From positions 39,947-103,946 of IMG/VR virus record IMGVR_UViG_3300044980_000010: DNA of 64,000 nucleotides; one strand, given 5' to 3'. The notes under the pieces were generated by a model. That model was not told the origin of the DNA. It worked only from the letters and a program-made list of their open reading frames with translations, and did no database searches. This DNA is from a virus. Positions within the stretch are counted from its first letter, which is position 1. The number at the start of each line of letters is the position of its first letter. A program made the translations under genes and the position numbers. Positions 10,895-60,021 of the stretch are shown piece by piece.

Positions 10895-10972
10895 TGGTTG
10901 CGGTGGAAGGATTTGAACCTCCGTGATCAGGTTATGGGCCTGCGCTGGAACCGGACTCCAGTCTACACCGCA
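10895..10972 (-). tRNA. tRNA-Met(CAT), atypical C33
   Basis: TGCGGTG/CACCGCA acceptor, loop CCCATAA, GTTCAAATC, CCA. Confidence 0.8.
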
Positions 10973-10975
10973 TCA

Positions 10976-11053
10976 TGGTCAGGATGGCAGGATTTGAACC
11001 TGCGACCACTCGCATCCGAGGCGAGGACTCTGGCCAGACTGAGCTACATCCTG
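10976..11053 (-). tRNA. tRNA-Pro(CGG)
   Basis: Cloverleaf, CTCGC-CTCGGAT-GCGAG, C1-G72, A73, CCA. Confidence 0.9.
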
Positions 11054-11068
11054 TTGTTGAAAAAAAAA

Positions 11069-11144
11069 TGGTAGGCATGGATGGGATCGAACCACCAACC
11101 AGTGGAATCAGAGTCCACCGTTCTGCCAGTTGAACTACATGCCT
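11069..11144 (-). tRNA. tRNA-Gln(CTG)
   Basis: GTGGA-CTCTGAT-TCCAC, CCA. Confidence 0.85.
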
Positions 11145-11145
11145 G

Positions 11146-11221
11146 TGGTGGGGATGGATGGAATCGAACCACCGACGCGCAGCTTTTCAGACTGCCGCTC
11201 TACCAACTGAGCTACATCCCC
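11146..11221 (-). tRNA. tRNA-Phe(GAA)
   Basis: GCAGT-CTGAAAA-GCTGC, CCA. Confidence 0.92.
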
Positions 11222-11228
11222 GTGTTGC

Positions 11229-11606
11229 TTAGGAAACTTCCTGTGCCGATGTGACGTTGCCTGCGGCAGTGCTGATGCTGTTGCCGGACGTTGCCAGCTT
11301 AACAGTAAGTGTTGCGTTCTGGCCGGAGCCACTGATGGCGGTGACCACGCCGATTGCTGTGACCTGATTCCCGACAGCACCGTAGGACTTTCCGTCGATG
11401 CTCACTGCAACGTGGTTTGCGTCCGCCTGATGTTCGTTGGTGTAGGCGTCGTTAGCTTGGATGTTGAAGGTGCTCGCATCGAACGGTGCCTGTACAGTGA
11501 CTGTTGCTTTCGATCCCGTGCCGGACACGGACGATACTCTTGCTGTGATGGAGACGCTATCATTGACAGCGACCGTGGAGCCGTTCTTGTTGATTCCTGT
11601 GCTCAT
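11229..11606 (-). CDS. Small beta-rich protein with two SH3/KOW-like repeats
   Basis: NKNGSTVAVNDSV...V / SIDGKSYGAVGNQV...V repeats; inside the tRNA cluster. Confidence 0.65.
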   Translation of the reverse strand: MSTGINKNGSTVAVNDSVSITARVSSVSGTGSKATVTVQAPFDASTFNIQANDAYTNEHQADANHVAVSIDGKSYGAVGNQVTAIGVVTAISGSGQNATLTVKLATSGNSISTAAGNVTSAQEVS

Positions 11607-11624
11607 GTGTTGATCCTTTCAAAA

Positions 11625-11698
11625 TGGCACCCGAGGTTGGACTTGAACCAACAACGCAGCGTTTTGGAGACGCGCAGTTTGCTTGAGCCTACTCGGGC
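11625..11698 (-). tRNA. tRNA-Trp(CCA), irregular D-arm
   Basis: GCGT-CTCCAAA-ACGC, G73, CCA. Confidence 0.75.
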
Positions 11699-11708
11699 AA
11701 AACTTTTA

Positions 11709-11785
11709 TGGAGCGACCGGAGAGATTTGAACTCTCGACCTTCCCCATGGCAAGGGGACGCTCTACCAGACTGAGCTACGGTCGC
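11709..11785 (-). tRNA. tRNA-Gly(GCC)
   Basis: TCCCC-TTGCCAT-GGGGA, U73, CCA. Confidence 0.92.
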
Positions 11786-13110: not shown

Positions 13111-13514
13111 TTGTTCTCCTTTACAAGTTCAAACATCAGTTCGACGGTTCGCGGATATTCAAAACCAATCTGCTCAAGTCTTCCCTTGCGAGCATTGCAG
13201 CTTTTGTCTCTGCTTCCCTCTTTCATTCCACAGCACGCTACTACGTTGTTCATTGTGTAGCCTTGGTGGTGATCGAGGCGATCTAGGTTGTATCCAAACT
13301 CCGACAATGGACCGGAGCAGTAGTAGCACACTGGGTGTTTCAACATGAAGAACTCGTAGTCCTCCATGGAGATTTCTAGCAGTCTTCCATCGCGTCTTGC
13401 TGCACGCTTCAGTTGTGCATACCTGCCGGGAAATGATCTGCGATACTTTGCAACTACGTCGGGATTTGCGTCCCTCCATTTCCTAGCGTAACTTGCTCCG
13501 AGTCCTTTGCCCAT
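13107..13514 (-). CDS. HNH homing endonuclease, paralog of 4151-4615
   Basis: CYYC..LDRLDHHQGYTMNNVVACC; shared tail KGRLE.IGF..PRTV.LM.EL. Confidence 0.85.
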   Translation of the reverse strand: MGKGLGASYARKWRDANPDVVAKYRRSFPGRYAQLKRAARRDGRLLEISMEDYEFFMLKHPVCYYCSGPLSEFGYNLDRLDHHQGYTMNNVVACCGMKEGSRDKSCNARKGRLEQIGFEYPRTVELMFELVKENK

Positions 13515-13523
13515 CTGAGTCTC

Positions 13524-15164: not shown

Positions 15165-15559
15165 TGAGTCTTCCTCCGTTTATGTGGGCAGTAGCCGTAT
15201 AGACCGCGTGCCGAGTTGCAATTGTGACACAACACACGGAAACCTTTTGGGTAACCGTTGCGTTTTAACCAGAACAAAAACTTAGAACCATAAGCATTGA
15301 GTTTCTTTCTATGCTTGTTGCCGCCTTTAATGTGGTCGAAGCACAGGAACTCATACCTTGGCTCACCACAGCACTTGCATTTATTTCCATAGTGTTTAAG
15401 AACCTCTGTTCTTATCCTACGGAGATATTTTGCATCATAGTGTGGATGGCGTTTACGAAAGCGAGCACGCTTGGCTACTAGTTTCTTCCTGTTCTTTTCC
15501 CAGTACTTCTTTTGGGCTTTTGCCATTGCTTTGGGGTGGAGTTTCTTCCACGCTCGCAT
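15161..15559 (-). CDS. HNH endonuclease (true start possibly GTG 15620 with a frameshift)
   Basis: YGNKCKCCGE...FDHI...RVLCHNCN. Confidence 0.8.
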   Translation of the reverse strand: MRAWKKLHPKAMAKAQKKYWEKNRKKLVAKRARFRKRHPHYDAKYLRRIRTEVLKHYGNKCKCCGEPRYEFLCFDHIKGGNKHRKKLNAYGSKFLFWLKRNGYPKGFRVLCHNCNSARGLYGYCPHKRRKTQ

Positions 15560-20622: not shown

Positions 20623-20694
20623 ACTGAGTCTCCTGAGTTAAATGTCTACCCCGGCTGTGACGGGGCTTGCTAGGAGTTTCACCTAATACCGAGA

Positions 20695-38155: not shown

Positions 38156-39696
38156 TTTGAATATCTCCGTTGGATTCTTCCATCCGGCCTTCGTACGATT
38201 GGTCCGATACGTAGGATCGGCCTAGGTGCAGCCTTCCTCTCCCTCGGCGTACATTCCGGCATGATAGTGACCGGGACCGCGCCTTCTCGTACAGGCAGTG
38301 TGTTCATGTCCACAGGCCACTTCTCTGCTGTGATCCTCATCCATTCCGGTTTGTAGGTTCCGGGGAGAAAGGTCATGTGCATCGCAATGGTATCGTCCTG
38401 TAGAACGTCGCTGTCGTAAGCGTACCGAGTGTCATGGTGACCGTAGATGCCGTGCTCTGCCAGAACCATGCCTACCCACTCATCATCGTGAGTGCTGGTG
38501 ACTGGTGCATTGGCGATGATCTCACACGCTTTTCGACTGAGCCAAAATCCCGGTCCTCCGTGCGCGTAAGGGTTGCCATTCCAAAGGTTCCCGATGTAGT
38601 CGTGACCTTTGAACTCGCTGGTGCTCAAGCGGTACACATCGACGTAAACATCGTCGCATGGAGTGAAGACGTAATCGTACCCTTCACGGATGGCGTATCT
38701 GCAAATCTCCCGCAGCTTGTAGGGCATGTGAAAATAATCGTCTGGACAAGGCACAATCTCTTCGTCGATTTTTGGTGTGATCTCTGTGATCACCTCTTGT
38801 CGTCTGCCTACATAACAGCTTCCGTACTCTGAAGTCTTTGTCACCGTGGTCTCATCGACAGGTGTGCCATCGCCAATGAAGAACCTGTACTCGTAGTTGT
38901 ACAGGCGCACGTCTTTTGCCCACGTGTCCCTTACTGCTTGATTGTCGCCGCGAATGGCATCGCGCACGCAACTGCGTATTGCAATCAGAACTTGGTTCTC
39001 CAAGAAGTTTCCGTCCGTTCCTCGTCCCCACTTTTTAGTGTAGGCTCTGCGGTTCATTTCAGCCAGAACGTCTTGATTAGGGAGGCGCTTGTAGCTAGAA
39101 CTGCACTCACCCTTTCCATGGCCGTGTTTTACGATGGAAGAGGAGGTGACGGCCAACTTGAAACCTTCGCTCTTAGCTCTGCGGCAGAAATCAACATCAT
39201 CACTGCCGTATCCTGTGAACCTCTCATCGAGAAACCCAACCTTCTCGAACACTTTTCTGGTGATGAGAACACAGACGAACGTTACGAACATGTCGTTCAC
39301 CACTTGCAGTTCCGCTTGCGGATATGCCTGTGCTGGGTTGCATGCGTAGCCTTCGATTGCTGGAGAAAGAATGCCAACTGAAGGGTTGGATTGAAGGGCC
39401 TCGTACATGCACCGCAACGTGGTGTCATGCGTGAAGATCACGTCATCGTTCAGCAACATCACAGCGTCCACTGCTGGGTCTTTTAGAGCCTCGCTGACGC
39501 CTTGGTTCACATTGCGTGCGTAGACGAACCCCTCAGGAGACCCTTGCAGGCAGAGCCAGTCAGGGTGCTGAGGGGTTGTGATCTCGTTCCCGTCGCGCAC
39601 CAGAATCTTGCGTACGCCGGGAGTGTTCGTGTTCAGGTTTTCGTAGCACACAGAGAAAATGTCTGCGTGCTTTGATGGGATTACGATTGCCAGCAT
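38152..39696 (-). CDS. GT2 + GT31 fusion glycosyltransferase
   Basis: YARNVNQG, LLNDD, LDERF.GYGSDDVD; then VRDTW, DDY...K, CDD, GGPGFWLS, DDEWVG. Confidence 0.8.
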   Translation of the reverse strand: MLAIVIPSKHADIFSVCYENLNTNTPGVRKILVRDGNEITTPQHPDWLCLQGSPEGFVYARNVNQGVSEALKDPAVDAVMLLNDDVIFTHDTTLRCMYEALQSNPSVGILSPAIEGYACNPAQAYPQAELQVVNDMFVTFVCVLITRKVFEKVGFLDERFTGYGSDDVDFCRRAKSEGFKLAVTSSSIVKHGHGKGECSSSYKRLPNQDVLAEMNRRAYTKKWGRGTDGNFLENQVLIAIRSCVRDAIRGDNQAVRDTWAKDVRLYNYEYRFFIGDGTPVDETTVTKTSEYGSCYVGRRQEVITEITPKIDEEIVPCPDDYFHMPYKLREICRYAIREGYDYVFTPCDDVYVDVYRLSTSEFKGHDYIGNLWNGNPYAHGGPGFWLSRKACEIIANAPVTSTHDDEWVGMVLAEHGIYGHHDTRYAYDSDVLQDDTIAMHMTFLPGTYKPEWMRITAEKWPVDMNTLPVREGAVPVTIMPECTPRERKAAPRPILRIGPIVRRPDGRIQRRYSK

Positions 39697-39707
39697 CTGA
39701 GTCTCCG

Positions 39708-40015: not shown

Positions 40016-42034
40016 TTACGCCACTGTTATGCTTTTGTAAAACACATAAGTGTCTGACGTAGGTGTTGCCGGGGTATTAAGAATGTTAGTTGGGTTGGTG
40101 TTGTTTATACTGGAGTATATAGCACCAAGGTTAGCGTTAAACGGACCATTCTGCCAGTATCCGGGGTCTCCAGTTGTGTTGTCAAAGTAAATCAAAAGAT
40201 AGTAATCGTGATTTACGTCCACTTGGATGTTTATAGGATCAGTGGTCACAGTTGTGGTGTACGTAGCAGATGCAGAACCGCTGTTAAATGTTACTGGAAC
40301 TACTGAGGTCACTACTCCGCTGTCGGCAGGGCAAATTGCTATGCTGCATGCGTCTAGTTTTACAGTGTTTCCATTAAACGATGAGAGTGTAACTTTCCAA
40401 CTTGCAGGTAGACAAATAGCCATTCTACCTGAAAGCATATTAGAACAAGTGTTTCCACCAAAAGCACCCTGTGCAAAATTGCCTGTGCTCCAACCGCTAT
40501 ATGCTCCCAACCACACATTGCTGCCAGAGGTAGGTGTATTGACCCACTTTACACCTGAAACAGTCGATGACAGTTGCTGTCCGTATGTACCAACACTGCC
40601 TGTAGAGTCCTCAATGGGTCCACCAAAGTGAGAAGGCCCACCTGCAACCCATATTGAATAAGGGCTTGGTGTAGCTGGTGTTACAGGTTGATTCTCTATG
40701 TACAGTCCAAAATATGCACTAGCCACACCAGAAAATGTAAAATTCCCTGTATCGGCTGCTGGCCCGTAGTTGCTGTGGGAAAAATTTGCAACTACTGTAG
40801 TATTACTTGTTGTGCCTGTTACTTGCACTGTTTGGCCATTAAGGAATGTAGCTGTACCCACGTTGTAGAAGGTAATAAAATCGTTAACTTGAGCAAACCC
40901 AAAAGGGTTCAAACCTACGATTGTAAGTACTCCTCCTGAAACCTGAACAGAACTTATAGTTCCTTGTAGTTCATTTGTAGCTGCTTCCACATACAGCCCA
41001 GCATACTGCGTTATTCCTCCGCGCCCTAGGTTTACATGTGTCTGCACGCCTCGTGCTGTTCCTAGGTTTCCTCCGTGCGTAGTAAACTCTGCTTGATGGC
41101 CAATGGCTGTGGTGATTGGAGAACCGTAATCAAGATCACTTCCTATGTTAGATAGGAAAACTACCGCACTGCCCATTGTTCCTGCACCGTCATTGACTAC
41201 GCTTACGTTAACTCCGAACACATTTGCAACTGACCCGCTTGTAGAGGAGAATATATTCGCAGTAAAGGCTTGGATTGTGGAAACTGTGTCGGTAGCAGTG
41301 TGGTTTAAAGCTAGGCTTATACCTTCAATGCTTTGTGGCCCGTATACACCAGTCTCTTGATACTGTGCAGACCAAAATGTATAACTGTTATCGTCACCTG
41401 CCGCAGTGTTTTCGCACTTTAGGCTTGTCTTTAGTACTGTGTACCCGTTGTCGTCGTTTGAAATCTGACGTAGGTATATACCAGTATCCTGAGAAGTTCC
41501 TGAATCGCTGCCAATCAACAGTGTGGAGTTGGTGTAGTCCCAAGCAAACGCCGAGCTAGCAGCAAAAACTCCAGTACTGTTATATTGTATCTGCGTGTCT
41601 GCCCCAGCCGCTGCTCCCCCTCCGCTAATGGTTACTCCCCCTGCACCGTCTGCCGTTACAGAGATTTGTCCTGACCCTTTTATGTTTAGCAAAGACTGAA
41701 CTGTGTTGGGCACTCCGTTGGTTTGTAGAATAAGAGAACTGCCTGCTCCGGCACCAATGAGCTGATCTGGGAAAACTTGTTGTGTCTTACCGAACTGAAT
41801 CAGAACTATTGTGTAGAGTCCTGACGCCACATATCCGTAGGCGTGCCCGAAGCCATCAGCCACTAGCGGCTGCGTAATAGGAGTGACAGAGCCAGAATCA
41901 GCGTAAAGCTGTGCGAGTGGGCTAGGCGGTACTGTAGTGGTCACGGCAGGCTGTGTGCAGATATAGACCTGAGTCCCGGCTGCTGCGGGTCCAACTGCGG
42001 AACGGACCCATGTATCAAATCTTGCTAAAGGCAT
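40016..42034 (-). CDS. Tailspike/fibre with N-terminal head-binding-like domain
   Basis: LAQLYAD...TQPLVADGFG, GADTQIQYN fibre motif; lower GC. Confidence 0.7.
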   Translation of the reverse strand: MPLARFDTWVRSAVGPAAAGTQVYICTQPAVTTTVPPSPLAQLYADSGSVTPITQPLVADGFGHAYGYVASGLYTIVLIQFGKTQQVFPDQLIGAGAGSSLILQTNGVPNTVQSLLNIKGSGQISVTADGAGGVTISGGGAAAGADTQIQYNSTGVFAASSAFAWDYTNSTLLIGSDSGTSQDTGIYLRQISNDDNGYTVLKTSLKCENTAAGDDNSYTFWSAQYQETGVYGPQSIEGISLALNHTATDTVSTIQAFTANIFSSTSGSVANVFGVNVSVVNDGAGTMGSAVVFLSNIGSDLDYGSPITTAIGHQAEFTTHGGNLGTARGVQTHVNLGRGGITQYAGLYVEAATNELQGTISSVQVSGGVLTIVGLNPFGFAQVNDFITFYNVGTATFLNGQTVQVTGTTSNTTVVANFSHSNYGPAADTGNFTFSGVASAYFGLYIENQPVTPATPSPYSIWVAGGPSHFGGPIEDSTGSVGTYGQQLSSTVSGVKWVNTPTSGSNVWLGAYSGWSTGNFAQGAFGGNTCSNMLSGRMAICLPASWKVTLSSFNGNTVKLDACSIAICPADSGVVTSVVPVTFNSGSASATYTTTVTTDPINIQVDVNHDYYLLIYFDNTTGDPGYWQNGPFNANLGAIYSSINNTNPTNILNTPATPTSDTYVFYKSITVA

Positions 42035-42058
42035 TGTATCTCCTTGGGACTGCCTCCC

Positions 42059-42907
42059 TTACCATGAGAGGAATGTGAACTCGTTGTTGAGGTCGCCGTC
42101 GCTGTTGCCGTACGGGATGCGTGCGAAGTCTTGATTTTGCATCCGGCGAACGTTGGCGTTCTTCAACTGGAACATCTGATTTTTTGACTCTGCCAGTAGA
42201 TCAGCAAGCCCCGGTGATCCCAACATTCTTGCATACTTCACGGCTGTGAGGTAGGCGATTGCGTCTGTGCAATCTGGGATGGGCACGTATGTCGAATCGA
42301 AATCCAAATCCGAACTGAAGAACTGAGGCAGTGAGCAGTAGTAGCGAAGACGAATGTCGCGCTGTGTAGTTGCTCCTCTGAAGTTAAGCCGTCCATTGCG
42401 CCACTCCCACTGCGCGAAGATCGGACCTTGGAAGCAACTGTCCAAACCACCGGACGGTGCATCCATTAGAACAAAAGGATTATTGGTGCCAGTGCTGCGC
42501 TCCCAAACTTTTGTTGGGTATAAGCAGTCTGCCGGGAGAATGAGATTCGGCCATAGCTCAAGGCCATCGAAGTACCCCTCAGGTGCCAAGAACGTCTGCA
42601 CGGTGGGATCGCACTGCCCTAGTCCTTGAGATGGACTGTTGATTATAGGGAGGCCAGTGAGTATCACATTGTCTTTGATGAGCACTGGATCACCAACGTT
42701 GCGGAGTTCTCTGTAGACCTCTCGGATGGAACTGTTGAGGAACGGCTGGGTGAATGGTGAGATCGTTGGATCGTTCGTGAAGATTTGACCTTCACCGGGA
42801 GTGTCGGTCGCGCCTGCTTGGGTATCGTTCACCAAGGATCGTACGAGGTCCATGATCGTTGCTAAACTCGTGGTCTGTTGACCTACGTTGATTGTCGGGC
42901 TAGACAT
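42059..42907 (-). CDS. Head-tail adaptor-like protein
   Basis: LVRSLVND...FLNSSIRE...DAIAYLTA pattern; position. Confidence 0.6.
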   Translation of the reverse strand: MSSPTINVGQQTTSLATIMDLVRSLVNDTQAGATDTPGEGQIFTNDPTISPFTQPFLNSSIREVYRELRNVGDPVLIKDNVILTGLPIINSPSQGLGQCDPTVQTFLAPEGYFDGLELWPNLILPADCLYPTKVWERSTGTNNPFVLMDAPSGGLDSCFQGPIFAQWEWRNGRLNFRGATTQRDIRLRYYCSLPQFFSSDLDFDSTYVPIPDCTDAIAYLTAVKYARMLGSPGLADLLAESKNQMFQLKNANVRRMQNQDFARIPYGNSDGDLNNEFTFLSW

Positions 42908-42929
42908 GTTGTCTCCTATAAACTAACAA

Positions 42930-43087
42930 AGGGGAGTGGATCAAAGATTACGGCCACTGGACTCAGATCAGCGACGGGTCTTCTCTCCACTCCCCTAAGA
43001 TTGATACAGAAATAGCATGGCACCACCAAACCCCACCGAAGGCGGGGGACTCAGAACCCAGCGTTGCGGGTGGAGTCGGTAATGCCA
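42930..43087 (-). ncRNA. Tandem long-hairpin RNA with loops UUCUGAGUC and AUCUGAGUC
   Basis: Hand folding; G-U pairs favour the minus strand; loops are antisense to the recurring RBS motif. Confidence 0.65.
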
Positions 43088-43134
43088 AGATCGTGTTACC
43101 AAAATGTGCGCGGCGTTGTTCTGCCGCGACTGAC

Positions 43135-43950
43135 TTACTGCTGCACCTTTGGTTGCTTTGGTGCGTACTTCTCGTTTTCCGTCGCTTCGTAGGCTTGAGC
43201 GCGGCTGCGTACACCAGCCTTGATCGCTGCATCCCAATCCCCGACGCACAGGCCACCGCCTTCGAGGGCGTGGAACGGTGCTCCAACGTTTGCAGGCGAG
43301 CCGCAACGTGGGCAGTTCTCTTTGTGGACGGCCTTGTTGTGCCACGTGAACGTCTCGTGGAAGTAGTCCGCTGCGGCGTGATGCGCCGGACTCAGGACCG
43401 CTGACAGGCTCTGTGGGTTCGATACCTCAACCGCACGCGCTTCTTGCAGCAGGCTCTTGTAGTGTGCTTCCAAGCGCCGCGTTGCTGCCGCCAGTTCCTT
43501 CTCCGTTGGCTCTTCCTTCAGAGACCAGAACACTCCCAGCTTTCCAAGGTTGTTTCCAACCGTGAACGTCTGCGTGATCACAGCGTCCTGATCCAGTGAA
43601 AGGTTGTCAGGATTGATGATGTCCATCGCCATGCGCCGTCCGTCGATCACAACGATGTCGATGTCGTTGGAGTCGATGTTGCCCTTCGGGAACTTGAAGG
43701 GCGAAGGCAGCTTGGTGATTCGAGCGTATTTCTCGCTCTCAGCGCGAGCCGGGATGATCATTTCTTTGATCAGCGGCAGGCGCGATACTTTGTACTCCTG
43801 CTTTGCGATGTTGAACAGGTAGACGAAGAAATCGGCTGGACGACTCAACATATAATCTGCTGTTGAGAAGTTCCAATCGACGTTGTTCGCCCTAGTCATT
43901 GCCGTGCTGAGATCACCACGGGTAGTAGGTGCGCTACAGGTTGGTTCCAT
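43135..43950 (-). CDS. Hypothetical protein with C-terminal Zn ribbon; paralog of 45807-46571
   Basis: DGRRMAMDIINP.NL.LDQD shared. Confidence 0.75.
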   Translation of the reverse strand: MEPTCSAPTTRGDLSTAMTRANNVDWNFSTADYMLSRPADFFVYLFNIAKQEYKVSRLPLIKEMIIPARAESEKYARITKLPSPFKFPKGNIDSNDIDIVVIDGRRMAMDIINPDNLSLDQDAVITQTFTVGNNLGKLGVFWSLKEEPTEKELAAATRRLEAHYKSLLQEARAVEVSNPQSLSAVLSPAHHAAADYFHETFTWHNKAVHKENCPRCGSPANVGAPFHALEGGGLCVGDWDAAIKAGVRSRAQAYEATENEKYAPKQPKVQQ

Positions 43951-43985
43951 TGTGAGTCCTTCTGACGCTGTGCGTCATTCTGAGT

Positions 43986-44717
43986 TTATACCGGATCAGG
44001 AGATACAGAGAGACCGCGCCCGAGTCGGCTCGCGTTGGTCATCATCTTGTTCCAGTTCCGTTGCATCTGTTCGATCTTCTTGTCAACCAGAGCAGTTCTG
44101 CACCCCTGCTTCTGGTAGGACACTGCGTTGCCTTTGAATGCCAGAGAGTTTGATCGCATCACATCTTCAATCATGTCGATGTCTGCTTTGTCTTCTCTCT
44201 CCTTCAAATCATCCATCACAGCTTTGGTCTTTTCCCAACTGATGTCTTTGGCTTGTGTGATGATTGGCACTACCGTGTCCAGCAGGAACGTGTTGAGCGG
44301 CATCATTTCAAAGTACATCCTGCCGTTTCTCATCTCGCTCCAGCGTAGGTTGTACAGCATCTGGTATCGACCACTGTATGGGTACTCTCCCAGAGTTTGC
44401 AACCCAGAGTCTTCGTCGTAGTTCTGGACGTAGTAGAGTTCTGGTGTTCCATACTCAAGAGAGTCATGCCATTGCAGCAGCGCCCAGCATGGTACGCCAC
44501 CTCCGATTAGAAGGTCTCGGTATCCTGTGTAGGACACTTGATCTTCTCCGGCCCACGCACCGCCTGCGCGATACATGGAATGTGGGTCACCACCTTGCGA
44601 CCATACCAACAAAAAGTTTGGCTCGTCGTATCGGTTAACCCCTCCGATGTCTGTGAGGCGTTCTTGGAACTCCTCAGGGCATAGGTACTGCTGATAGCTA
44701 GCTGTTGGGCTGGGCAT
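43986..44717 (-). CDS. Hypothetical protein (head module)
   Basis: Long ORF, GGVNRYDEPNF.LVW. Confidence 0.7.
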   Translation of the reverse strand: MPSPTASYQQYLCPEEFQERLTDIGGVNRYDEPNFLLVWSQGGDPHSMYRAGGAWAGEDQVSYTGYRDLLIGGGVPCWALLQWHDSLEYGTPELYYVQNYDEDSGLQTLGEYPYSGRYQMLYNLRWSEMRNGRMYFEMMPLNTFLLDTVVPIITQAKDISWEKTKAVMDDLKEREDKADIDMIEDVMRSNSLAFKGNAVSYQKQGCRTALVDKKIEQMQRNWNKMMTNASRLGRGLSVSPDPV

Positions 44718-45054
44718 CTGTCGCCTGTCCCTGCTGTGGAGACTCCTCGTTAGGGGGCGTTGGGTTCTCTCCACGGGCTACTGCGGCTTTCAGCGCCGCA
44801 CGCTGTGCCTTCAACTGTTCAGTCTTGACCAGCACGTAGGCATCGACCTCTGTGCGATCCACGATGCCGAGTTTCTTTTCACAGATGAAGTTAATCAAGA
44901 TGGCTGCTGTGTCTGCCATTCCCATCAACTCGTTGTCGTTTGAGGCCAGCTTCATAAACAACTTATGAGCCTCGCGCCGCGTCATCGGTGCATCCCAGTA
45001 CTTATCGTAGGGTTGTGTGATGGGTGAATCGCTGCTGAGAATGAGGTTAGACAT
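44698..45054 (-). CDS. Hypothetical protein
   Basis: GGAAGG RBS, overlap with neighbours. Confidence 0.6.
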   Translation of the reverse strand: MSNLILSSDSPITQPYDKYWDAPMTRREAHKLFMKLASNDNELMGMADTAAILINFICEKKLGIVDRTEVDAYVLVKTEQLKAQRAALKAAVARGENPTPPNEESPQQGQATDAQPNS

Positions 45055-45790
45055 TGTTGCCTTCCAATCCCGGCTCAGAAGCAGCCGTTTCCCGCTCGAT
45101 TCCACGGACATCCTGTACACGCACTACGCGCAAACCTTCTGGGTCTGGCTCATAGTTCATCTGTACCGAGTCACAGAGGACTTTTACTTTCTCTTCGTCC
45201 ATGTGGAAGACTTCTGAGTTGTAGTCACCATAAGTGACCTTATCTCCCACGCAAACCACTTCGCTCATCTGAATGCGCTGCCCACCAAGGATTACGAACT
45301 GCCCTGTGGCCAAGACGATGCCGATGTTTGAGTGCTGCCTGTACTTTGCTGCGATGACCAGTCCTGTTTTCGTGTTGAGAACGCTTCCGTCCTCCATGAT
45401 CTTCATGTCTGGGCTGTCAGCACACCGCTTGATGAGGATGCGGTCGAGAATGGGTGTGAACGAGTCATACTTCTTCTCAGGCCATTTCTTTTCAGCTACA
45501 GGAGCGGCTTTTACTTCTTCCACTTCCTGCGAGTAGCTTCTGCGGCGGTCGATGACTTCGATTCCTGCCCCCAACTCTTCCACGAGGGCGATGGGCTGAC
45601 GCTCAAAGCGTTCACCCTTCAGAATCTTCTCGTCATACTCCGCGATATCTGCGTCTGTGACGCCGTACTTTTCCTTCACGATGTCCCGGCGAACCCTGAG
45701 ATCATACTCAAAGTCCGAAAGTTCACCACCACCCGCAGCAAACTGTGCGCTGCGTGCGCCGCGTGCCAATACATCTCCACCGTTGTTCAT
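45047..45790 (-). CDS. groES: Co-chaperonin GroES/Cpn10 with N-terminal extension
   Basis: TPILDRILIK, TKTGLVI, GIVLATG, VGDKVTYGDY, RVQDVRGI. Confidence 0.8.
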   Translation of the reverse strand: MNNGGDVLARGARSAQFAAGGGELSDFEYDLRVRRDIVKEKYGVTDADIAEYDEKILKGERFERQPIALVEELGAGIEVIDRRRSYSQEVEEVKAAPVAEKKWPEKKYDSFTPILDRILIKRCADSPDMKIMEDGSVLNTKTGLVIAAKYRQHSNIGIVLATGQFVILGGQRIQMSEVVCVGDKVTYGDYNSEVFHMDEEKVKVLCDSVQMNYEPDPEGLRVVRVQDVRGIERETAASEPGLEGNNV

Positions 45791-45806
45791 TGAGTCTCCT
45801 GAGTCG

Positions 45807-46571
45807 TTACCGAGTTGATCTCGGACCTTCTACGTAGTCCACTGCTGCCTTCACTTCCACCACGGGTACGCCAAGTGTTCCGGCTGCTGCTGTGATTCGC
45901 ACGATGTTTGCGCGATCAATAACTTCTTGGTAGTACTTCTTCAAACGCTTGTGTGCCGCCTTGATTTCTTTCTTCAAGGGAGGGTTGTGAGTAGAGAAGA
46001 ATACACCCTTTTTTCCGAAGTCGTTTCCTACAGCGGACGACCACTGCAAGTAAGAGGCTTGATCCTGATCTTGATCTAAGCCCAAGTTGGAGGGGTTGAT
46101 CAAGTCCATGGCAACCCTTCGTCCGTCCATGAAGAAGTAATCTGTCTCTCCACTCTCCACGTTCGGCTTTGGTTGCACCACAACTAGCGGAAGGCTTGTG
46201 GCTACCGTGTACTCTTCATCAGGAGGGCATGCTGGAATCTTCAACCTCTTGATGAGGGCGTTCCCTAAGCTGTGCTCTTGTCTGCTGATGTTGTAAATCC
46301 AAACTTTTTCTGCTCTGCCTAAGATGTCGAACAGATTCAACTGATTGATACACAGATCAGTGTGAAGGTTCGTTGAGTCAGTCATAGCTTTAGACAGTTG
46401 CTCGTCGCGCAACTTCGTTACAGTCATTGTGGCGACGATCTCTGAGTTTATTGAGGCGCTTTCACTTGGCAGCGGCTCGATTGGGTCAATGATCAGTTCC
46501 GCTGCTGATTGTCCGGCGATTAGGTTGTACATCTCGGCGGCTTTACTGCGGATTAGTTCTAGTCCAGTCAT
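45807..46571 (-). CDS. Hypothetical protein; paralog of 43135-43950
   Basis: DGRRVAMDLINPSNLGLDQD, GNDFGKKGVF. Confidence 0.75.
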   Translation of the reverse strand: MTGLELIRSKAAEMYNLIAGQSAAELIIDPIEPLPSESASINSEIVATMTVTKLRDEQLSKAMTDSTNLHTDLCINQLNLFDILGRAEKVWIYNISRQEHSLGNALIKRLKIPACPPDEEYTVATSLPLVVVQPKPNVESGETDYFFMDGRRVAMDLINPSNLGLDQDQDQASYLQWSSAVGNDFGKKGVFFSTHNPPLKKEIKAAHKRLKKYYQEVIDRANIVRITAAAGTLGVPVVEVKAAVDYVEGPRSTR

Positions 46572-46724
46572 CTGAGTCTCTTTTCCTTACCTAGAGTTTA
46601 CGTCTAACCGATGTTTTGGCTTCTATCCTCCCCGGCCAACCAGACCCGCACGTTTGCGCGAGAGGTCTGGGGCCAAGGAAATCGCTCGCTCCATCGCAAA
46701 ATGGCCGAGACGAAGATCGAGTAC

Positions 46725-50151: not shown

Positions 50152-50217
50152 TGTGAGTCCTTCTGTTCTGAGTTTTGGAGCCTCGGGGCCACGTTGTTCT
50201 GTGGCCCCTCGTTGGTA

Positions 50218-55050: not shown

Positions 55051-55434
55051 CTATTTCTTGGCGGCTGCTGCCGCTGCTTCTGCTGCCTCTTGCTCTTCAG
55101 CAAGTTCTTTCTCGATCCTTGCGTTGTGCTCGTCTTGCTCTGCCTGCCACGAGGTTTTAACAGGTGGTGCAGTAAAGCTAGCGAAGCTGGGCTTCTCTGG
55201 TTTCTTTGCAGTAGGGTCAATGCCTACGCGCCGATTGATATTCAGTTCGTACATACCAATCTTTGCAGTCAGCAGTGCTTTCTCTGCACGCAGATCAGCA
55301 ATCACTCCGTCCTTGTCCTGACGAAGCTGCTGCATGTCCGTACGGAGCAACATTAAATCCTGCTCCAGACGTTGGACTAAGGAAGAGTAAAATAACTCAT
55401 CCCATGTGTCTCTGATCCATGCGCCGATGTTCAT
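55051..55434 (-). CDS. Coiled-coil hypothetical protein
   Basis: ATGA overlap with the terminase. Confidence 0.65.
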   Translation of the reverse strand: MNIGAWIRDTWDELFYSSLVQRLEQDLMLLRTDMQQLRQDKDGVIADLRAEKALLTAKIGMYELNINRRVGIDPTAKKPEKPSFASFTAPPVKTSWQAEQDEHNARIEKELAEEQEAAEAAAAAAKK

Positions 55435-57110
55435 CCCTGATCCTGCTTTCCCATCCACACGGGTTGTTCCGGTGGTCTGAATGATGCGGTCCTGTTCGCA
55501 GCTTCAGCGTCCAGTTTCATCTTCAAAAAGTGTGCGGCCAGAGGATCAGTCTTTTTCAGCTTATCGACTCGCTCTTTCTCTGCTTGTGCGGCTGGCTTCT
55601 TGCGTGCGGCTAGGTGTCCGTACAATCCGTAACGGAAACCGTCGTAGCAGTCGTCGCCTTTAGCATCGACTTTGAGCACGTCATCAAGTAGGTCTGGGTT
55701 TCGCATCAACGACGGGATTGCAAGAATGATTTCCTTGCAGGTGTCGAGGATTACTAGCTCACCCTTCTTAATGGCGTTGTACATCAGGGACGCGGAACCG
55801 ATACGATCTCGCGTAGCTGACGTGACTGGCGGGAGTCCCACTTGCTTCAACGCTCGTGAGTACTCATCCGCAGGTGTTCTGTTGTCCATCTGGCGATTGA
55901 ACTTTTCGTGAGAGAAGTAAATCGCGTTCAGTTTGACGGGTTGACCGTTAGGGAGGTGGCATTTCGATTTGATGAGAGATGCTAACTCATCCATCGTTTT
56001 TCCACCCGTCACTACCAGTTCAGCAAAACACACAGTCTTGAGTCTGTAGTTTTCTCCAACTGAGTCCTTGACCATCGCCTTTGTGAATAGATAAGTGGCG
56101 TTGGCGTGCTGCATTCCCCAGTCTTCTCCTGCCCACACTGGCTGGTAGTCTTGCCAGACGATTGAGTCAGGGTCTTCTCTGAGGTTGATTACGTGGTAAG
56201 AAGGATCGAAGCAGTCGAAGTATTGTCCCTCGACAGAACCATCGTACCCGTATAGAACTTTGTCGCGCTTCGCCTTCGGCATCGACATGAGACGTGCGAT
56301 GATGCCGGGGTCGCGTGCGAGCAGTTCTGGGTTGTCCATTACTGTCGAACGCTGATAGGCGTATTTGCTTGGGTCATAAATCTTGACCCACTCACCAGAT
56401 TCCTGAACCCACCATGTGCCATCCACAGGATCGCGCTTGGCTTCCTCGCCGGGATTCCAAGGCTCCTGCTGTACAAACAAGGTGCGGTAGTATTCGTAGT
56501 GAGGGCCTAACGGGTTTGTGCAGCCCACGATTGCCGGGATGGGCAGGTTACCTGCTTCATCTCTCTCGCAACCTGCGTTGACGATGTTTCTGGAGTAGAG
56601 CATCATCCATGCATCGGGTGAGAACTGTCCACACTCGTCAACGAGAATAGCTGGGTACGCTTGGCCTAAGTACTGCTCGATGTCTCGATCTTTGTTGTTC
56701 TGACAGTGACCGAACACGATGCGCGATCCATTCTTCAACGTCGCTACGTGCTTTGTTTGGTCGTAGTCATATAGTTCCGGTGGCATGAAGGTTTTGAAAT
56801 CTGAGATAGCACCAGACTCCAACTCCTTAAACGTACGCCGCAGCACAAGCAGGTTGCAGTTATTCCACTGCAAGCAGTAGTGCATCACGAAGTACATTAA
56901 CCAACCACACGTTTTGCCTGAACGGATGCCGCCAGTACTGAGGCACTGTTCTGCCGCAGGCTGTACGTACACTTTGCCGTTACGCATCACGTTCCGTAGC
57001 AGTTCTGTCTGCTTCGCTTGGAACCTGAAAATCTTGTCAAAGTTCAGCGTCCCGTCCGCGTTCAGGTACGGCTTTGTTTCTACCGCGTCTGTAATCTTTT
57101 TTCGGGGCAC
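55431..57110 (-). CDS. terL: Terminase large subunit
   Basis: GGIRSGKT, LRRTF.EL, ILVDE, CTNPLG, DWG, DDCYDGFRY. Confidence 0.92.
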   Translation of the reverse strand: MPRKKITDAVETKPYLNADGTLNFDKIFRFQAKQTELLRNVMRNGKVYVQPAAEQCLSTGGIRSGKTCGWLMYFVMHYCLQWNNCNLLVLRRTFKELESGAISDFKTFMPPELYDYDQTKHVATLKNGSRIVFGHCQNNKDRDIEQYLGQAYPAILVDECGQFSPDAWMMLYSRNIVNAGCERDEAGNLPIPAIVGCTNPLGPHYEYYRTLFVQQEPWNPGEEAKRDPVDGTWWVQESGEWVKIYDPSKYAYQRSTVMDNPELLARDPGIIARLMSMPKAKRDKVLYGYDGSVEGQYFDCFDPSYHVINLREDPDSIVWQDYQPVWAGEDWGMQHANATYLFTKAMVKDSVGENYRLKTVCFAELVVTGGKTMDELASLIKSKCHLPNGQPVKLNAIYFSHEKFNRQMDNRTPADEYSRALKQVGLPPVTSATRDRIGSASLMYNAIKKGELVILDTCKEIILAIPSLMRNPDLLDDVLKVDAKGDDCYDGFRYGLYGHLAARKKPAAQAEKERVDKLKKTDPLAAHFLKMKLDAEAANRTASFRPPEQPVWMGKQDQG

Positions 57111-57120
57111 TGAGTTGCCT

Positions 57121-58088: not shown

Positions 58089-58109
58089 TCTGAGTCTCCT
58101 TGTGTTTTA

Positions 58110-59076: not shown

Positions 59077-59152
59077 TGGCTGGCCCCAGAGGTCTCGAAC
59101 CTCCACCACACGTGTTAACAGCACGTTGCTCTGCCGATTAAGCTAGAGGCCA
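59077..59152 (-). tRNA. tRNA-Asn(GTT)
   Basis: ACGTG-CTGTTAA-CACGT, U1-A72, G73, CCA. Confidence 0.9.
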
Positions 59153-59439
59153 TCCTCTACTTCACGATGACAGTTCGCGCAGATAAGAACACATTTCTTC
59201 GCCTCTGCTAAAAGTCTGGACCAACTGTAGGTCAAGCCCTCAGAGCATATCGCAAAAGATTTGTCTTCAGGATTCGTGTGATGAAACTCCAGTGCTCTCC
59301 AACACCTGCTATATCCACAGATGCTGCATTTGCCACCGAACAGTTCCTTCAACTTCCTAATCTTGTTCTTCCTCCACCGCTGAACGTTCTCAGTCAACTT
59401 CTTTTTCTGTTCAGGTGAAGAATCTTTCCATCTAGACAT
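59143..59439 (-). CDS. HNH endonuclease
   Basis: GGKCSICGY...ALEFHH..P..K...KCVLICANCHRE. Confidence 0.88.
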   Translation of the reverse strand: MSRWKDSSPEQKKKLTENVQRWRKNKIRKLKELFGGKCSICGYSRCWRALEFHHTNPEDKSFAICSEGLTYSWSRLLAEAKKCVLICANCHREVEDGL

Positions 59440-59534
59440 CGAAACACCTTTCTTCGATGCCTGCCGTCACAGCCACTCGGTTTGAGTCCGAGAACTCACC
59501 ACGCTCCGTTCGTTAGTCGGAGCACTTCAATCTT

Positions 59535-59614
59535 TGGTCGGCTGGGCGAGGGGCGTGTCTCGCATACGTCCGGCCCATCGCCGGATGCTTACCACATATT
59601 CAGCTACTCAGCCG
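59535..59614 (-). ncRNA. tRNA-like cloverleaf with CCA but non-canonical loops (Pro-derived?)
   Basis: CGGCTG/CAGCCG-A-CCA, TCCGG/CCGGA, GCGAG/CTCGC; T loop ACACGCCC. Confidence 0.6.
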
Positions 59615-59795
59615 TCATAAACTTTATCGGTGGATTATTGTACCGTTCGCCACCGTTGACGTGTTTTCCCCTGTCCGCACAGGGCCGCTTAGGTATACAC
59701 GCTTGCAACTCAAACTCTGCCTCGCCTCCTCACGGACTGGCTGGGCGTCAGGCTTCGGCTATGGCGCTTTCACGCGAGCCGTCTGAAGCTAAGAC

Positions 59796-59930
59796 ATCAA
59801 GGGGAATGCTCTACCAGACTGAGCTACGTCGCGCATCCGCGAGTCCGCGTTGCTCTCGCTTTAACGGGAGACATTGGATGCTGGAGGCGACGACAGGATT
59901 TGAACCTGCGACCTTTCCCAGATCGTTGAC
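59796..59930 (-). ncRNA. Circularly permuted tRNA-like RNA (YrlA/Y-RNA-like)
   Basis: T-arm plus acceptor 3' strand plus CCA (59919-59882) precede the acceptor 5' strand plus D-arm (59833-59802). Confidence 0.75.
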
Positions 59931-59947
59931 CATTTCTGGTCGAACTT

Positions 59948-60021
59948 TGGTGGACCCTAAGGGAATCGAACCCATATTCGCCGCGTGCAAGGCGGCAGTC
60001 CTCCCGTTAAACGAAAGGCCC
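59948..60021 (-). tRNA. tRNA-Ala(TGC)
   Basis: GCCGC-CTTGCAC-GCGGC, G3-U70, CCA. Confidence 0.9.

What the first reader, a model, noticed from the sequence alone, without database searches (positions are those of the whole stretch)
42930..43087. Tandem-hairpin RNA whose two loops are exact antisense to a recurring translation-start motif: candidate phage sRNA regulon
Seen: on the minus (late) strand this intergenic gap folds into two long hairpins, 43087-43018 (UGGCAUUACCGACUCCACC...GGUGGGGUUUGGUGGUGCCA) and 42996-42930 (AGGGGAGUGGA...UCCACUCCCCU, then UUGUU). The stems differ in sequence. Both apical loops are 9 nt and nearly identical: UUCUGAGUC (43056-43048) and AUCUGAGUC (42968-42960). 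These are the reverse complements of GACUCAGAA and GACUCAGAU, the spacer-plus-start sequences at genes starting 58088, 13514, 39696 and 46571. G-U pairs fit only the minus-strand fold. Several targets have two ACTCA sites, matching the two loops. Inference: a trans-acting antisense RNA, processed from the late transcript, that pairs across the start regions of about 10 mRNAs to set their translation or timing. Hairpin B has an alternative fold that hides GAGUC, which could act as a switch. I know of no described equivalent.
Basis: partly seen in the sequence, partly recalled or inferred. Interest (0 to 1): 0.92.

Follow-up and report, generated by a model that had tools for sequence, protein, structure and literature searches.

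The report
Phage RNA hairpins mirroring start-site tag
An uncultured soil phage and dozens of relatives keep a folded RNA, placed just before the head-to-tail adaptor gene, whose exposed loops are the exact mirror of a short private tag next to the start codons of about a tenth of their late genes. It is therefore probably an RNA that pairs with those start sites to tune protein synthesis, but no expression data exist.

Summary
The 227-nt gap between a 271-aa gene and the adaptor gene folds far better than shuffles (z -5.8). It contains two long hairpins with 9-nt loops UUCUGAGUC and AUCUGAGUC.

It is a real, conserved RNA. I found 67 distinct versions in related viral and soil or peat metagenome contigs. 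The loop core CUGAGUC never changes, while the stems change freely and stay paired: 92.6% of cells paired, 13 of 14 pairs with compensatory changes, and many G-U pairs on the gene strand only. There is no Rfam match.

The loop complement GACUCA(G) is the most enriched non-Shine-Dalgarno word at start regions in two complete genomes (11 seen, about 1 expected), almost all on the late strand. The hairpin and the tag occur together: 61 of 429 start regions carry the tag in the hairpin clade, against 0 of 76 in the clade without it. In one distant relative the tag and its mirror changed together.

Not shown: that a discrete small RNA exists, that it is processed, or which way it regulates. The kind is known (Cuckoo/CcsR RNAs; c4 of P1/P7), so this is a new variant. 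The scan has noted similar anti-start-site RNAs in other phages.

The parts
43106..43130 (-). Hairpin 0, directly after the stop codon of the upstream gene. It has a GC stem, the loop AGAACAAC and then ACAUUUU. In about 11 single-hairpin relatives the loop of this hairpin instead reads (A)CUCAG(A), complementary to loop A.
43088..43105 (-). Conserved A/U-rich single-stranded lead-in (consensus AUUUYAGUAAC..CUU). A copy of it precedes hairpin B as well. It is found nowhere else in the genomes upstream of genes.
43018..43087 (-). Hairpin A. It consists of an outer stem, a purine-rich internal region, a 3-bp upper stem and a 9-nt loop. It is framed by the conserved CUU (43090-43088) and AUG (43017-43015).
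   Evidence: R1 model 51.8 bits
43048..43056 (-). Loop A, UUCUGAGUC. It is the exact complement of GACUCAGAA.
42997..43017 (-). Linker between hairpins A and B. It repeats the lead-in motif (AUUUCUGUAUCAAUCUU).
42930..42996 (-). Hairpin B. It consists of an 11-bp outer stem, a 5-bp middle helix, a 7-bp upper stem and a 9-nt loop.
   Evidence: 33.4 bits
42960..42968 (-). Loop B, AUCUGAGUC. It is the exact complement of GACUCAGAU, that is, the tag plus the A and U of a start codon.
42908..42929 (-). U-rich tail after hairpin B, then the Shine-Dalgarno GGAG (42916-42913) of the adaptor gene. This leaves no room for a promoter.
42059..42907 (-). Downstream gene of 282 aa, a podovirus head-to-tail adaptor.
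   Evidence: Foldseek hits: N4 tail complex 9lc0_H (E 5e-5) and T7 gp11 7box_N. The model is of moderate quality, pLDDT 60.
43135..43950 (-). Upstream gene of 271 aa, function unknown, with a conserved C-terminal CxxC..H..C. Its own start region carries the tag (GGACUCACAAUG, 43958-43950).
58089..58096 (-). Tagged start region of the 149-aa gene that starts at 58088 (9 nt complementary to loop A).
57111..57116 (-). Variant tag AACUCA before the GTG start (57110) of the terminase large subunit.
50154..50159 (-). Tag before the start at 50151 (500-aa gene). A second AACUCAG lies 17 nt upstream.
46571..46578 (-). Tagged start region of the 254-aa gene (9 nt complementary to loop B).
45791..45805 (-). 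Double tag flanking the Shine-Dalgarno of the 247-aa gene with a GroES-like domain (start 45790).
39696..39703 (-). Tagged start region of the glycosyltransferase gene (start 39696).
20625..20639 (-). Double tag before the start at 20622 (186-aa gene).
15165..15170 (-). Tag before the GTG start at 15164 (dNMP kinase-like gene).
13514..13521 (-). Tagged start region of the endonuclease VII-like gene (start 13514).

Best explanation
The gap before the adaptor gene encodes a conserved, structured RNA element on the late-gene strand. Its job is to present the invariant single-stranded word CUGAGUC, in one or two hairpin loops, for base pairing with the tag GACUCA(G). This phage clade places that tag directly beside the Shine-Dalgarno sequence or the start codon of roughly one late gene in ten.

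Pairing of 6-9 nt would cover the spacer, often the first two bases of the start codon, or the 5' edge of the SD. It would therefore change ribosome loading on those messages.

By precedent (c4, Cuckoo/CcsR, DicF) the most likely outcome is repression. It could act either in trans, after the hairpins are cut out of or terminated from the late transcript, or while they are still part of it.

Shown: the RNA structure, loop invariance, complementarity, tag enrichment, co-occurrence, and one case of co-change.

Inferred: that pairing happens in the cell, the form of the RNA, and the sign of the effect.
For: 1. Structure under selection. In 51 distinct A-type hairpins, 92.6% of pair cells are standard pairs, against 32-46% when the partners are slid. 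There are 207 double-change cells against 58 +/- 6 in shuffles, and 13 of 14 pairs show compensatory changes. In 15 distinct B-type hairpins a 7-bp upper stem covaries under an invariant loop.

2. Strand. There are about 45 G-U cells but only a few A-C cells, so the fold belongs to the gene-strand RNA.

3. Loop. CUGAGUC is identical in 67 distinct hairpins. Only the two 5' loop bases vary: UU 31, AU 21, UC 11.

4. Tag. GACTCA and ACTCAG are the top non-SD words in positions -24 to -1 of predicted starts. G000: 11 against 1.16 expected, p 4e-8. G001: GACTCA 11 against 0.88 (p 3e-9) and ACTCAG 13 against 1.04 (p 1e-10). Nine of the 10 tagged starts in G000 and all 12 in G001 are on the late strand.

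5. Predicted duplexes of -10 kcal/mol or better: 7 of 74 and 10 of 92 late start regions, against about 1% of random late-strand windows and 0-1 early-strand starts. Shuffled loops reach this in 0 of 150 and 1 of 150 trials.

6. The three common loop variants are the complements of three of the four commonest contexts after the tag: GGA 20, GAU 19, GAA 14 of 117.

7. Co-occurrence. 61 of 429 distinct start regions are tagged in the hairpin clade, against 0 of 76 in relatives without it (not corrected for phylogeny).

8. Co-change. In the distant relative G004 the tag reads AACUCAGGAG, and the same gap carries its exact 10-12-nt complement.

9. Regulon partly conserved. The tag is kept at 4 of 33 late-strand orthologue pairs between G000 and G001 (3 tagged in G000 only, 1 in G001 only, 25 in neither), although its position relative to the SD moved (p 0.004).

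10. In about 11 lineages the neighbouring hairpin 0 has (A)CUCAG(A) as its loop, on covarying stems. This is a second, independent occurrence of the complement.

11. There is one locus per genome, and homing-endonuclease genes are inserted on either side of it but never inside it.
Against: - There are no transcript data of any kind, so neither a discrete RNA nor its ends are known.
- No promoter or clear intrinsic terminator was found by the consensus scan. The adaptor gene starts about 22 nt after hairpin B, so B cannot be an efficient terminator.
- In this phage, hairpin A's loop is predicted to be mostly paired with an internal GACUC.
- C/U-rich loops pair with purine-rich start regions rather easily. 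At a -8 kcal/mol cut-off, shuffled loops do as well as the real ones.
- A third of the tags (35 of 117) have A rather than G after GACUCA, leaving only 6 bp.
- Co-occurrence rests on essentially one evolutionary split, and co-change on one genome.
- No phage Hfq or ProQ was found.
- The elaborate conserved scaffold (purine-rich internal loops, conserved flanks) is more than a simple seed-presenting sRNA needs, and could point to a protein or ribosome partner.
Confidence: 0.55

Rival explanations
1. The element is a cis-acting leader of the adaptor-nozzle (tail) genes. Its hairpins set how much transcription or message stability passes from the head genes into the low-copy tail genes, by attenuation, nuclease processing or 5' protection. 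The invariant loop is the binding site of a protein, or forms an internal kissing contact with hairpin 0. Its complementarity to the start-site tag would then be secondary.
For: - The position is fixed directly before the adaptor gene in all relatives.
- Hairpin 0 and hairpin B (or the plain GC hairpin that replaces B) are each followed by U-rich tails.
- In about 11 lineages the loop of hairpin 0 is complementary to loop A, which would give an intramolecular kissing pair.
- Conserved purine-rich internal loops ((A/U)GUA(A/G)...GA(A/G) in 18 of 50) and conserved flanks suggest a defined 3D fold or a protein site.
- Two identical loops would suit a dimeric binder.
- The conserved neighbouring 271-aa protein has a CxxC..H..C motif.
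Against: - It does not explain why the loop is the exact complement of the most enriched non-SD word at late start sites.
- It does not explain why the tag and the hairpin appear together.
- It does not explain why they changed together in G004.
- The window's own hairpin 0 lacks the complementary loop.
- No terminator passes the consensus scan.
Confidence: 0.25
2. The RNA pairs with the tags but acts as an activator: a helper RNA that favours loading of ribosomes on tagged late messages. It could do this by stacking its loop-tag helix onto the adjacent SD/anti-SD helix, or by opening local structure.
For: - The tag abuts the SD on either side and shares one G with it (GGAGACUCA or GACUCAGGAG). 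That geometry would allow coaxial stacking.
- Tagged genes include proteins needed late (terminase, head proteins).
- The scaffold is more elaborate than a plain seed presenter.
Against: - I know of no bacterial or phage precedent for this.
- In about 45 of 117 cases the tag ends 1-2 nt before the start codon. A duplex there would sit inside the ribosome footprint, which normally blocks initiation.
Confidence: 0.08
3. A DNA-level signal: GACTC/GAGTC is a GANTC site (the CcrM-type methylation site, and also a nicking or restriction site), and the hairpins are cruciforms or single-strand DNA structures presenting it.
For: - The motif contains GANTC.
- The same double-stranded site occurs in both orientations.
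- An earlier scan note reports a two-piece tmRNA in this phage, which would fit hosts that use CcrM (not checked by me).
Against: - GANTC is neither avoided nor enriched (408 seen against 401 expected in G000).
- The tag is strongly strand-biased towards the coding strand (22:8, 13:4 and 12:4 in relatives).
- The tag is locked to within a few bases of the SD and start codon.
- The stems contain many G-U pairs, which work only as RNA on one strand.
Confidence: 0.03
4. Chance: ordinary stabilising hairpins whose loops happen to match a common spacer word.
For: The exact 8-mer count alone is weak (8 against 3.4 expected; 1 of 100 shuffles reaches it).
Against: - The loop is invariant over 67 distinct hairpins with covarying stems.
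- Shuffled loops fail to reproduce the target enrichment.
- Co-occurrence and co-change.
Confidence: 0.02

Closest known systems
Cuckoo / CcsR (ar14, NfeR) RNAs of Alphaproteobacteria
   Same: - Each RNA has two hairpins, and each loop carries the same conserved word complementary to ribosome binding sites.
- They occur in tandem copies.
- In Rhodobacter they are cut out of the 3'UTR of an mRNA by RNase E (PMC8034643).
- They have many mRNA targets.
   Different: - Their loop is the anti-SD itself (CCUCCUCCC). Here the loop mirrors a private tag beside the SD, not the SD.
- The element here is phage-encoded, inside a late structural operon, and aimed at the phage's own genes.
- There is no Rfam match to ar14 or any other family.
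- The scaffold here is longer (about 70 nt per hairpin, three helices).
c4 antisense RNA of phages P1 and P7
   Same: - It is phage-encoded.
- Its complementary sequences are placed in loops.
- It pairs around a ribosome binding site of a phage mRNA and blocks translation (PMC12197685).
- It is made from the same operon as its target (my own knowledge).
   Different: - c4 has one target (ant/icd), and it serves immunity in a temperate phage.
- Here about 10 dispersed late-gene targets share a tag.
- There is no sequence or structure similarity.
DicF (Qin prophage), and StxS / lambda 6S RNA
   Same: These are small RNAs generated from within phage operons, by processing or early termination. 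They pair with start regions (DicF-ftsZ, PMC12197685; StxS, PMC7547250).
   Different: - Their targets are host genes.
- They have no conserved tag-and-mirror system across a phage's own genes.
- They have no tandem identical loops.
Loop-presenting plasmid antisense RNAs (CopA, Inc RNA, Sok) with a YUNR U-turn
   Same: The recognition loop contains a YUNR word (CUGA here), which in those systems speeds loop-to-target pairing (my own knowledge; not tested here).
   Different: Those RNAs are cis-encoded, fully complementary to one target, and control replication or killing.
CsrB / RsmZ-type multi-hairpin RNAs
   Same: They have several hairpins with one repeated loop word related to ribosome binding sites.
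   Different: Their loops copy the mRNA site (GGA) in the same sense in order to soak up a protein. Here the loops are antisense to the mRNA site, so the logic is the opposite.

Membership tests
Base-pairing anti-start-site RNA (functional class: c4, Cuckoo/CcsR, DicF) | Single-stranded loop or seed complementary to the translation start regions of its targets | tested here: met
   6-9 nt exact complementarity to about 10 start regions. Enrichment holds against random windows and shuffled loops.
Base-pairing anti-start-site RNA (functional class: c4, Cuckoo/CcsR, DicF) | Seed conserved while the scaffold varies, with the seed and targets co-evolving | tested here: met
   The loop is invariant in 67 hairpins with covarying stems. 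One distant genome has the tag and its mirror changed together. Co-occurrence is 61/429 against 0/76.
Base-pairing anti-start-site RNA (functional class: c4, Cuckoo/CcsR, DicF) | Exists as a discrete, stable small transcript (own promoter and terminator, or processing) | not testable with these tools
   No RNA runs hold this DNA. The consensus scan finds no promoter or terminator here. The A/U-rich lead-ins are compatible with nuclease sites, but that is inference.
Base-pairing anti-start-site RNA (functional class: c4, Cuckoo/CcsR, DicF) | Changes translation or stability of the targets | not testable with these tools
   Needs toeprinting or reporter assays.
Rfam families c4, ar14/CcsR, DicF, or any other of the 4227 models | Match to the family covariance model | tested here: not met
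   Nothing reaches gathering score. At E up to 10 there are only chance miRNA, snoRNA and sroD hits far below threshold.
tRNA / tmRNA-like element | Cloverleaf or tRNA-like domain detectable by ARAGORN or the Rfam tRNA model | tested here: not met
   ARAGORN and Rfam find 8 and 7 tRNAs elsewhere in the window and none here.
Intrinsic (Rho-independent) terminator | Short GC-rich stem, small loop, and an immediately following run of U | tested here: inconclusive
   The scan reports no terminator in 42908-43134. Hairpins 0 and B do have U-rich tails (ACAUUUU; UUUGUUAGUUU), but B is 67 nt long and the adaptor gene must be read through it.
CsrB/RsmZ-type protein sponge | Loops carry a same-sense copy of the mRNA site bound by the protein | tested here: not met
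   The loops are the reverse complement of the mRNA motif, not a copy of it.

The most novel reading that the evidence does not exclude
The clade runs a private translation address system. A tag beside the SD marks a subset of late messages, and a dedicated structured RNA reads that tag. The RNA would act not as a simple blocker but as an adaptor that docks on the ribosome or a phage factor through its conserved purine-rich internal loops. It would extend the SD/anti-SD helix by coaxial stacking, giving tagged messages priority.
Probability: 0.07. Interest if true: 0.95.

Novelty: new variant of a known kind. Interest (0 to 1): 0.72.

Why it matters
If the pairing is real, a whole clade of large soil podoviruses controls about a tenth of its late genes through one short RNA word and its mirror. 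That would be a compact post-transcriptional regulon written into the phage's own start sites.

Published phage small RNAs mostly hit single targets or host genes. A self-directed regulon based on a tag and its mirror has not, to my knowledge, been described in print.

The RNA itself is a new, well-supported structured family: 67 variants, strong covariation and no Rfam entry. It could be added to RNA databases now.

The system is easy to test. The loop and the tag are 7 nt each, so compensatory mutations in reporters would settle it.

Earlier notes of this scan report analogous anti-start-site RNAs in several unrelated phages. This suggests a general strategy that has been overlooked, and this case has one of the larger comparative data sets.

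Tried and rejected
- RNA evidence: the look-up of sequencing runs listed no RNA holder, only soil and aquatic metagenome DNA runs. Expression could not be examined, and read laying was not used.
- Annotated phage database: blastn of 42000-44000 found no match.
- PHROGs and Pfam gave nothing for the flanking genes.
- A loose DNA pattern scan of viral contigs returned mostly chance hits and was dropped in favour of a three-block pattern and a protein-anchored metagenome scan.
- The genome contigs pattern scan gave one chance hit, in a Bacteroidetes MAG coding region with no hairpin. No host or prophage copy was found.
- The lead-in motif as a general late promoter: it occurs upstream of genes only at this element. 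Rejected.
- GANTC methylation or avoidance: observed counts equal expected. Rejected.
- Phage-encoded Hfq or ProQ/FinO: none found.
- Structure of the 271-aa neighbour: AlphaFold pLDDT was 43, too poor to search with.
- tRNA-like reading of GGUUCUGAGUCCC as a T-arm: the loop is one base too long, the arm order is wrong, and neither ARAGORN nor Rfam supports it. Rejected.
- RNAalifold on the MAFFT alignment recovered only the outer stem. I entered the upper stem by hand, anchored on the loop, so that part leans on my own structure.
- Loops of the most distant clade (GGUCUCC against GGAGACC, 9 nt) are near the chance level (about 0.3 expected per locus). I do not count them as evidence.

Full report
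**Setting**

The window is the right-hand 64 kb of a 103,946-bp IMG/VR virus record, about 94% complete. The DNA is held by soil metagenome runs. Most genes from 12 kb to 58 kb lie on the minus strand and form the late, structural arm:
- terminase large subunit at 55431-57110;
- a 282-aa gene at 42059-42907 whose predicted fold matches podovirus head-to-tail adaptors. Foldseek hits are the N4 tail complex 9lc0_H (E 5e-5), VP1, crAss001 and T7 gp11. The model has pLDDT 60, so this is a moderate call.

The finding lies in the 227-nt gap (42908-43134) between a 271-aa gene of unknown function and this adaptor gene.

**Checking the observation**

- The sequence is as described. Hairpin A is at 43087-43018 and hairpin B at 42996-42930, with loops UUCUGAGUC and AUCUGAGUC.
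- The gap folds at -98.5 kcal/mol, against -70.2 +/- 4.9 for shuffles (z -5.84).
- One correction. For this phage's hairpin A the energy minimum is a three-way junction in which GAGUC pairs with an internal GACUC (-38.6 kcal/mol).
- Hairpin B has the open loop as its minimum.
- The exact 8-mer count alone is unimpressive (8 against 3.4 expected).
- The underlying start-site motif is real. Ten minus-strand starts carry (G/A)ACUCA between or beside the SD and the start codon.

**Is the RNA conserved?**

Yes, strongly.
- Protein-anchored searches with the two flanking genes found relatives in viral contigs and 80 metagenome loci.
- Upstream of the adaptor gene I found 64 distinct hairpin units with an exact-word search, and 67 once three near-miss loci were added. 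In every one the loop core CUGAGUC is unchanged.
- The closing stems differ freely, for example GGG/CCC, CGG/CCG, GCGU/ACGC, CUUUUG/CAAAAG and CUAACG/CGUUAG.
- On an alignment of 51 distinct A-type hairpins, an outer stem of 9 pairs and an upper stem of 5 pairs are 92.6% paired, against 32-46% when the partners are slid by 1-3 columns. There are 207 double-change cells against 58 +/- 6 in shuffles, and 13 of 14 pairs show compensatory changes.
- RNAalifold found the outer stem unaided. I entered the upper stem by hand, anchored on the loop.
- Fifteen distinct B-type hairpins show a covarying 7-bp upper stem.
- About 45 G-U cells (A type), against a handful of A-C, place the structure on the gene-strand RNA.
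- A covariance model built from the alignment finds A and B in the window (51.8 and 33.4 bits) and the equivalent sites in three relatives' genomes. It finds nothing elsewhere in them. An exact-word scan agrees.
- Rfam has no match.

**Architecture across the clade**

- Close relatives (65% adaptor identity or more) have two loop-bearing hairpins, about 150 and 58 nt before the start codon.
- More distant relatives (55-63%) have one such hairpin. It is followed by a plain GC-rich hairpin with its own conserved loop (CGUGAACAGCG) and a U-rich tail just before the SD.
- Each loop-bearing hairpin is framed by a conserved CUU...AUG and preceded by an A/U-rich lead-in. That lead-in occurs nowhere else upstream of genes.
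- Under the upper stem many members have a purine-rich internal loop, (A/U)GUA(A/G)...GA(A/G), in 18 of 50. It is flipped to the other strand in 3. It resembles a bulged-G / loop-E module, but I could not test that.
- HNH-type homing endonuclease genes have landed in this gap in several relatives, upstream or downstream of the element but never inside it. This supports the element being a unit.

**The tag**

- In the two complete genomes, GACTCA and ACTCAG are the most enriched words at -24 to -1 of predicted starts, after the SD words themselves. G000: 11 against 1.16 expected, p 4e-8. G001: 11 against 0.88 and 13 against 1.04, p 3e-9 and 1e-10.
- Nearly all tags are on the late strand, and GACTCAG is strand-biased in the relatives.
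- Across 117 distinct tagged start regions, the tag sits either 0-4 nt before the start codon or directly 5' of the SD, sharing a G with it.
- Tagged genes in the window are a mixed late set: small and large terminase, three or four head-region genes, a glycosyltransferase, a dNMP kinase and an endonuclease VII-like gene.

**Linking the loop and the tag**

1. The loop is the exact complement of the tag.
2. Predicted duplexes of -10 kcal/mol or better occur at 7 of 74 and 10 of 92 late start regions, against about 1% of random late-strand windows and 0-1 early-strand starts. Shuffled loops match this in 0 of 150 and 1 of 150 trials, and those that come close are shifted versions of the same word. 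At a looser cut-off (-8) shuffled C/U-rich loops do as well, because they hit the SD. The signal is therefore in the exact word.
3. The only variable loop positions take three common values (UU, AU, UC). Their complements are three of the four commonest contexts after the tag: GAA, GAU (running into AUG) and GGA (running into the SD).
4. The hairpin and the tag occur together. 61 of 429 distinct start regions are tagged in loci with the hairpin, against 0 of 76 in the clade without it. This is essentially one evolutionary split, so it is supportive but not independent.
5. In the 48-kb distant relative G004 the model finds no hairpin. Even so, the same gap holds a 12-nt exact complement of one start region and a 10-nt complement of two others. 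The tag there reads AACUCAGGAG, so the tag and its mirror changed together. Chance expectation for a 12-mer is about 0.002-0.02.
6. Between G000 and G001 the tag is retained at 4 of 33 late-strand orthologue pairs even where it moved from one side of the SD to the other. This argues for selection on the tag itself.
7. In about 11 single-hairpin lineages the hairpin just upstream (hairpin 0) has (A)CUCAG(A) as its loop, on covarying stems. It is complementary to loop A. It could be a kissing partner or a built-in decoy. The window's own hairpin 0 has AGAACAAC instead.

**What is not known**

- I could not show that a discrete small RNA exists. No RNA run holds this DNA (see Tried and rejected).
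- The consensus scan finds neither a promoter nor a terminator in the gap.
- The adaptor gene begins about 22 nt after hairpin B, so transcription must read through B at least some of the time.
- The element may therefore act as part of the late polycistronic message, as a processed fragment, or as a prematurely terminated one.
- The sign of regulation is unknown. By precedent, and because many duplexes would include the first bases of the start codon, repression is the more likely direction.

**Rivals**

- A purely cis role (attenuation, processing or stabilisation at the head-to-tail gene boundary, with a protein on the loop or a loop-loop contact with hairpin 0) fits the fixed position and the elaborate scaffold. 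It leaves the complementarity, co-occurrence and co-change unexplained. I give it 0.25.
- An activating 'adaptor' role is possible but has no precedent (0.08).
- A DNA-level GANTC reading is disfavoured by unbiased GANTC counts, the strand bias and the G-U pairs.
- Chance is excluded by conservation.

**Comparison with known systems**

- The closest published analogues are the Cuckoo/CcsR RNAs. They have two hairpins per RNA, each loop an anti-SD word, and they are RNase E-processed from a 3'UTR (PMC8034643).
- The next closest is the c4 RNA of P1/P7, whose loops pair around a ribosome binding site of a phage message (PMC12197685).
- DicF and StxS show that phage operons yield small RNAs by processing or early termination (PMC12197685, PMC7547250).
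- This element is not a member of any of those families (no model match).
- It differs in four ways: it targets a private tag beside the SD rather than the SD itself; it is aimed at the phage's own late genes; it has a larger conserved scaffold; and it carries a possible internal decoy.
- I therefore rate it a new variant of a known kind.
- Earlier notes of this scan (for example e1-5741258, e1-5644734, e1-6034955) describe similar tag-and-mirror RNAs in unrelated phages. I did not test those, but they suggest the strategy is widespread.

**Verdict**

- The conserved RNA family and its statistical tie to the start-site tag are solid.
- Pairing in vivo, the form of the RNA and its effect remain to be shown.

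Noticed in passing
L015:4010-4700, L005:2400-3000, L007:2400-3000, L011:3830-4520: HNH-type homing endonuclease genes are inserted into this same gap in several relatives. They sit either downstream (L015, L005, L007) or upstream (L011, L153, L157) of the RNA element, always leaving it intact. The gap is a hotspot for mobile genes.
   Followed up: partly
L178, L180, L190, L191, L193, L196, L201 (last hairpin before the adaptor start); window 43115-43122: A third conserved loop. In single-hairpin lineages, the GC hairpin just before the adaptor SD has the loop CGUGAACAGCG on covarying stems. The window's hairpin 0 loop, AGAACAAC, shares GAACA with it. The U-rich tail (UGUU..) before the SD could pair with it. 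Its function is unknown.
   Followed up: no
G004 (L232-L234), about 25240-25260 and starts at 20168, 23227, 24365: A 48-kb distant relative lacks the hairpin family. It has a 10-12-nt exact complement of three of its own start regions (tag AACUCAGGAG) in the same gap before its adaptor gene.
   Followed up: partly
L224:3300-3500, L225:2340-2540: In the most distant clade the gap holds a long hairpin framed by AUCUU...AUG, like the window's element. Its apical GGUCUCC is complementary to GGAGACC start regions in the same loci (9 nt). This is near the chance level, so it is only a hint.
   Followed up: partly
window 43135-43950 (-): The 271-aa protein encoded just upstream has invariant C213, C216, H227 and C235 (a zinc-ribbon-like motif). 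It is syntenic with the RNA element in all clades. There is no family match, and the AlphaFold model is unusable (pLDDT 43).
   Followed up: partly
window 43070-43078 (-): Hairpin A of this phage contains an internal GACUC that can pair with the loop's GAGUC. This gives a more stable closed form (-38.6 against -35.4 kcal/mol). It is absent in relatives. It is either a private self-masking switch or a coincidence.
   Followed up: partly
alignment A4, internal loop below the upper stem: The signature (A/U)GUA(A/G) ... GA(A/G) flanks the upper stem in 18 of 50 hairpins. The same pair of words is swapped between strands in 3 of them. It is reminiscent of a bulged-G / loop-E module.
   Followed up: no
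window 45047-45790 (-): A 247-aa late protein has a C-terminal GroES/Cpn10-like domain (Pfam PF00166, E 5e-8). It lies among the head genes and has a double tag at its start.
   Followed up: no
window 10895-11785 and 59077-60021 (-): There are eight tRNA genes in two clusters (Arg, Pro, Gln, Phe, Trp, Gly; Asn, Ala). Rfam confirms seven of them.
   Followed up: no
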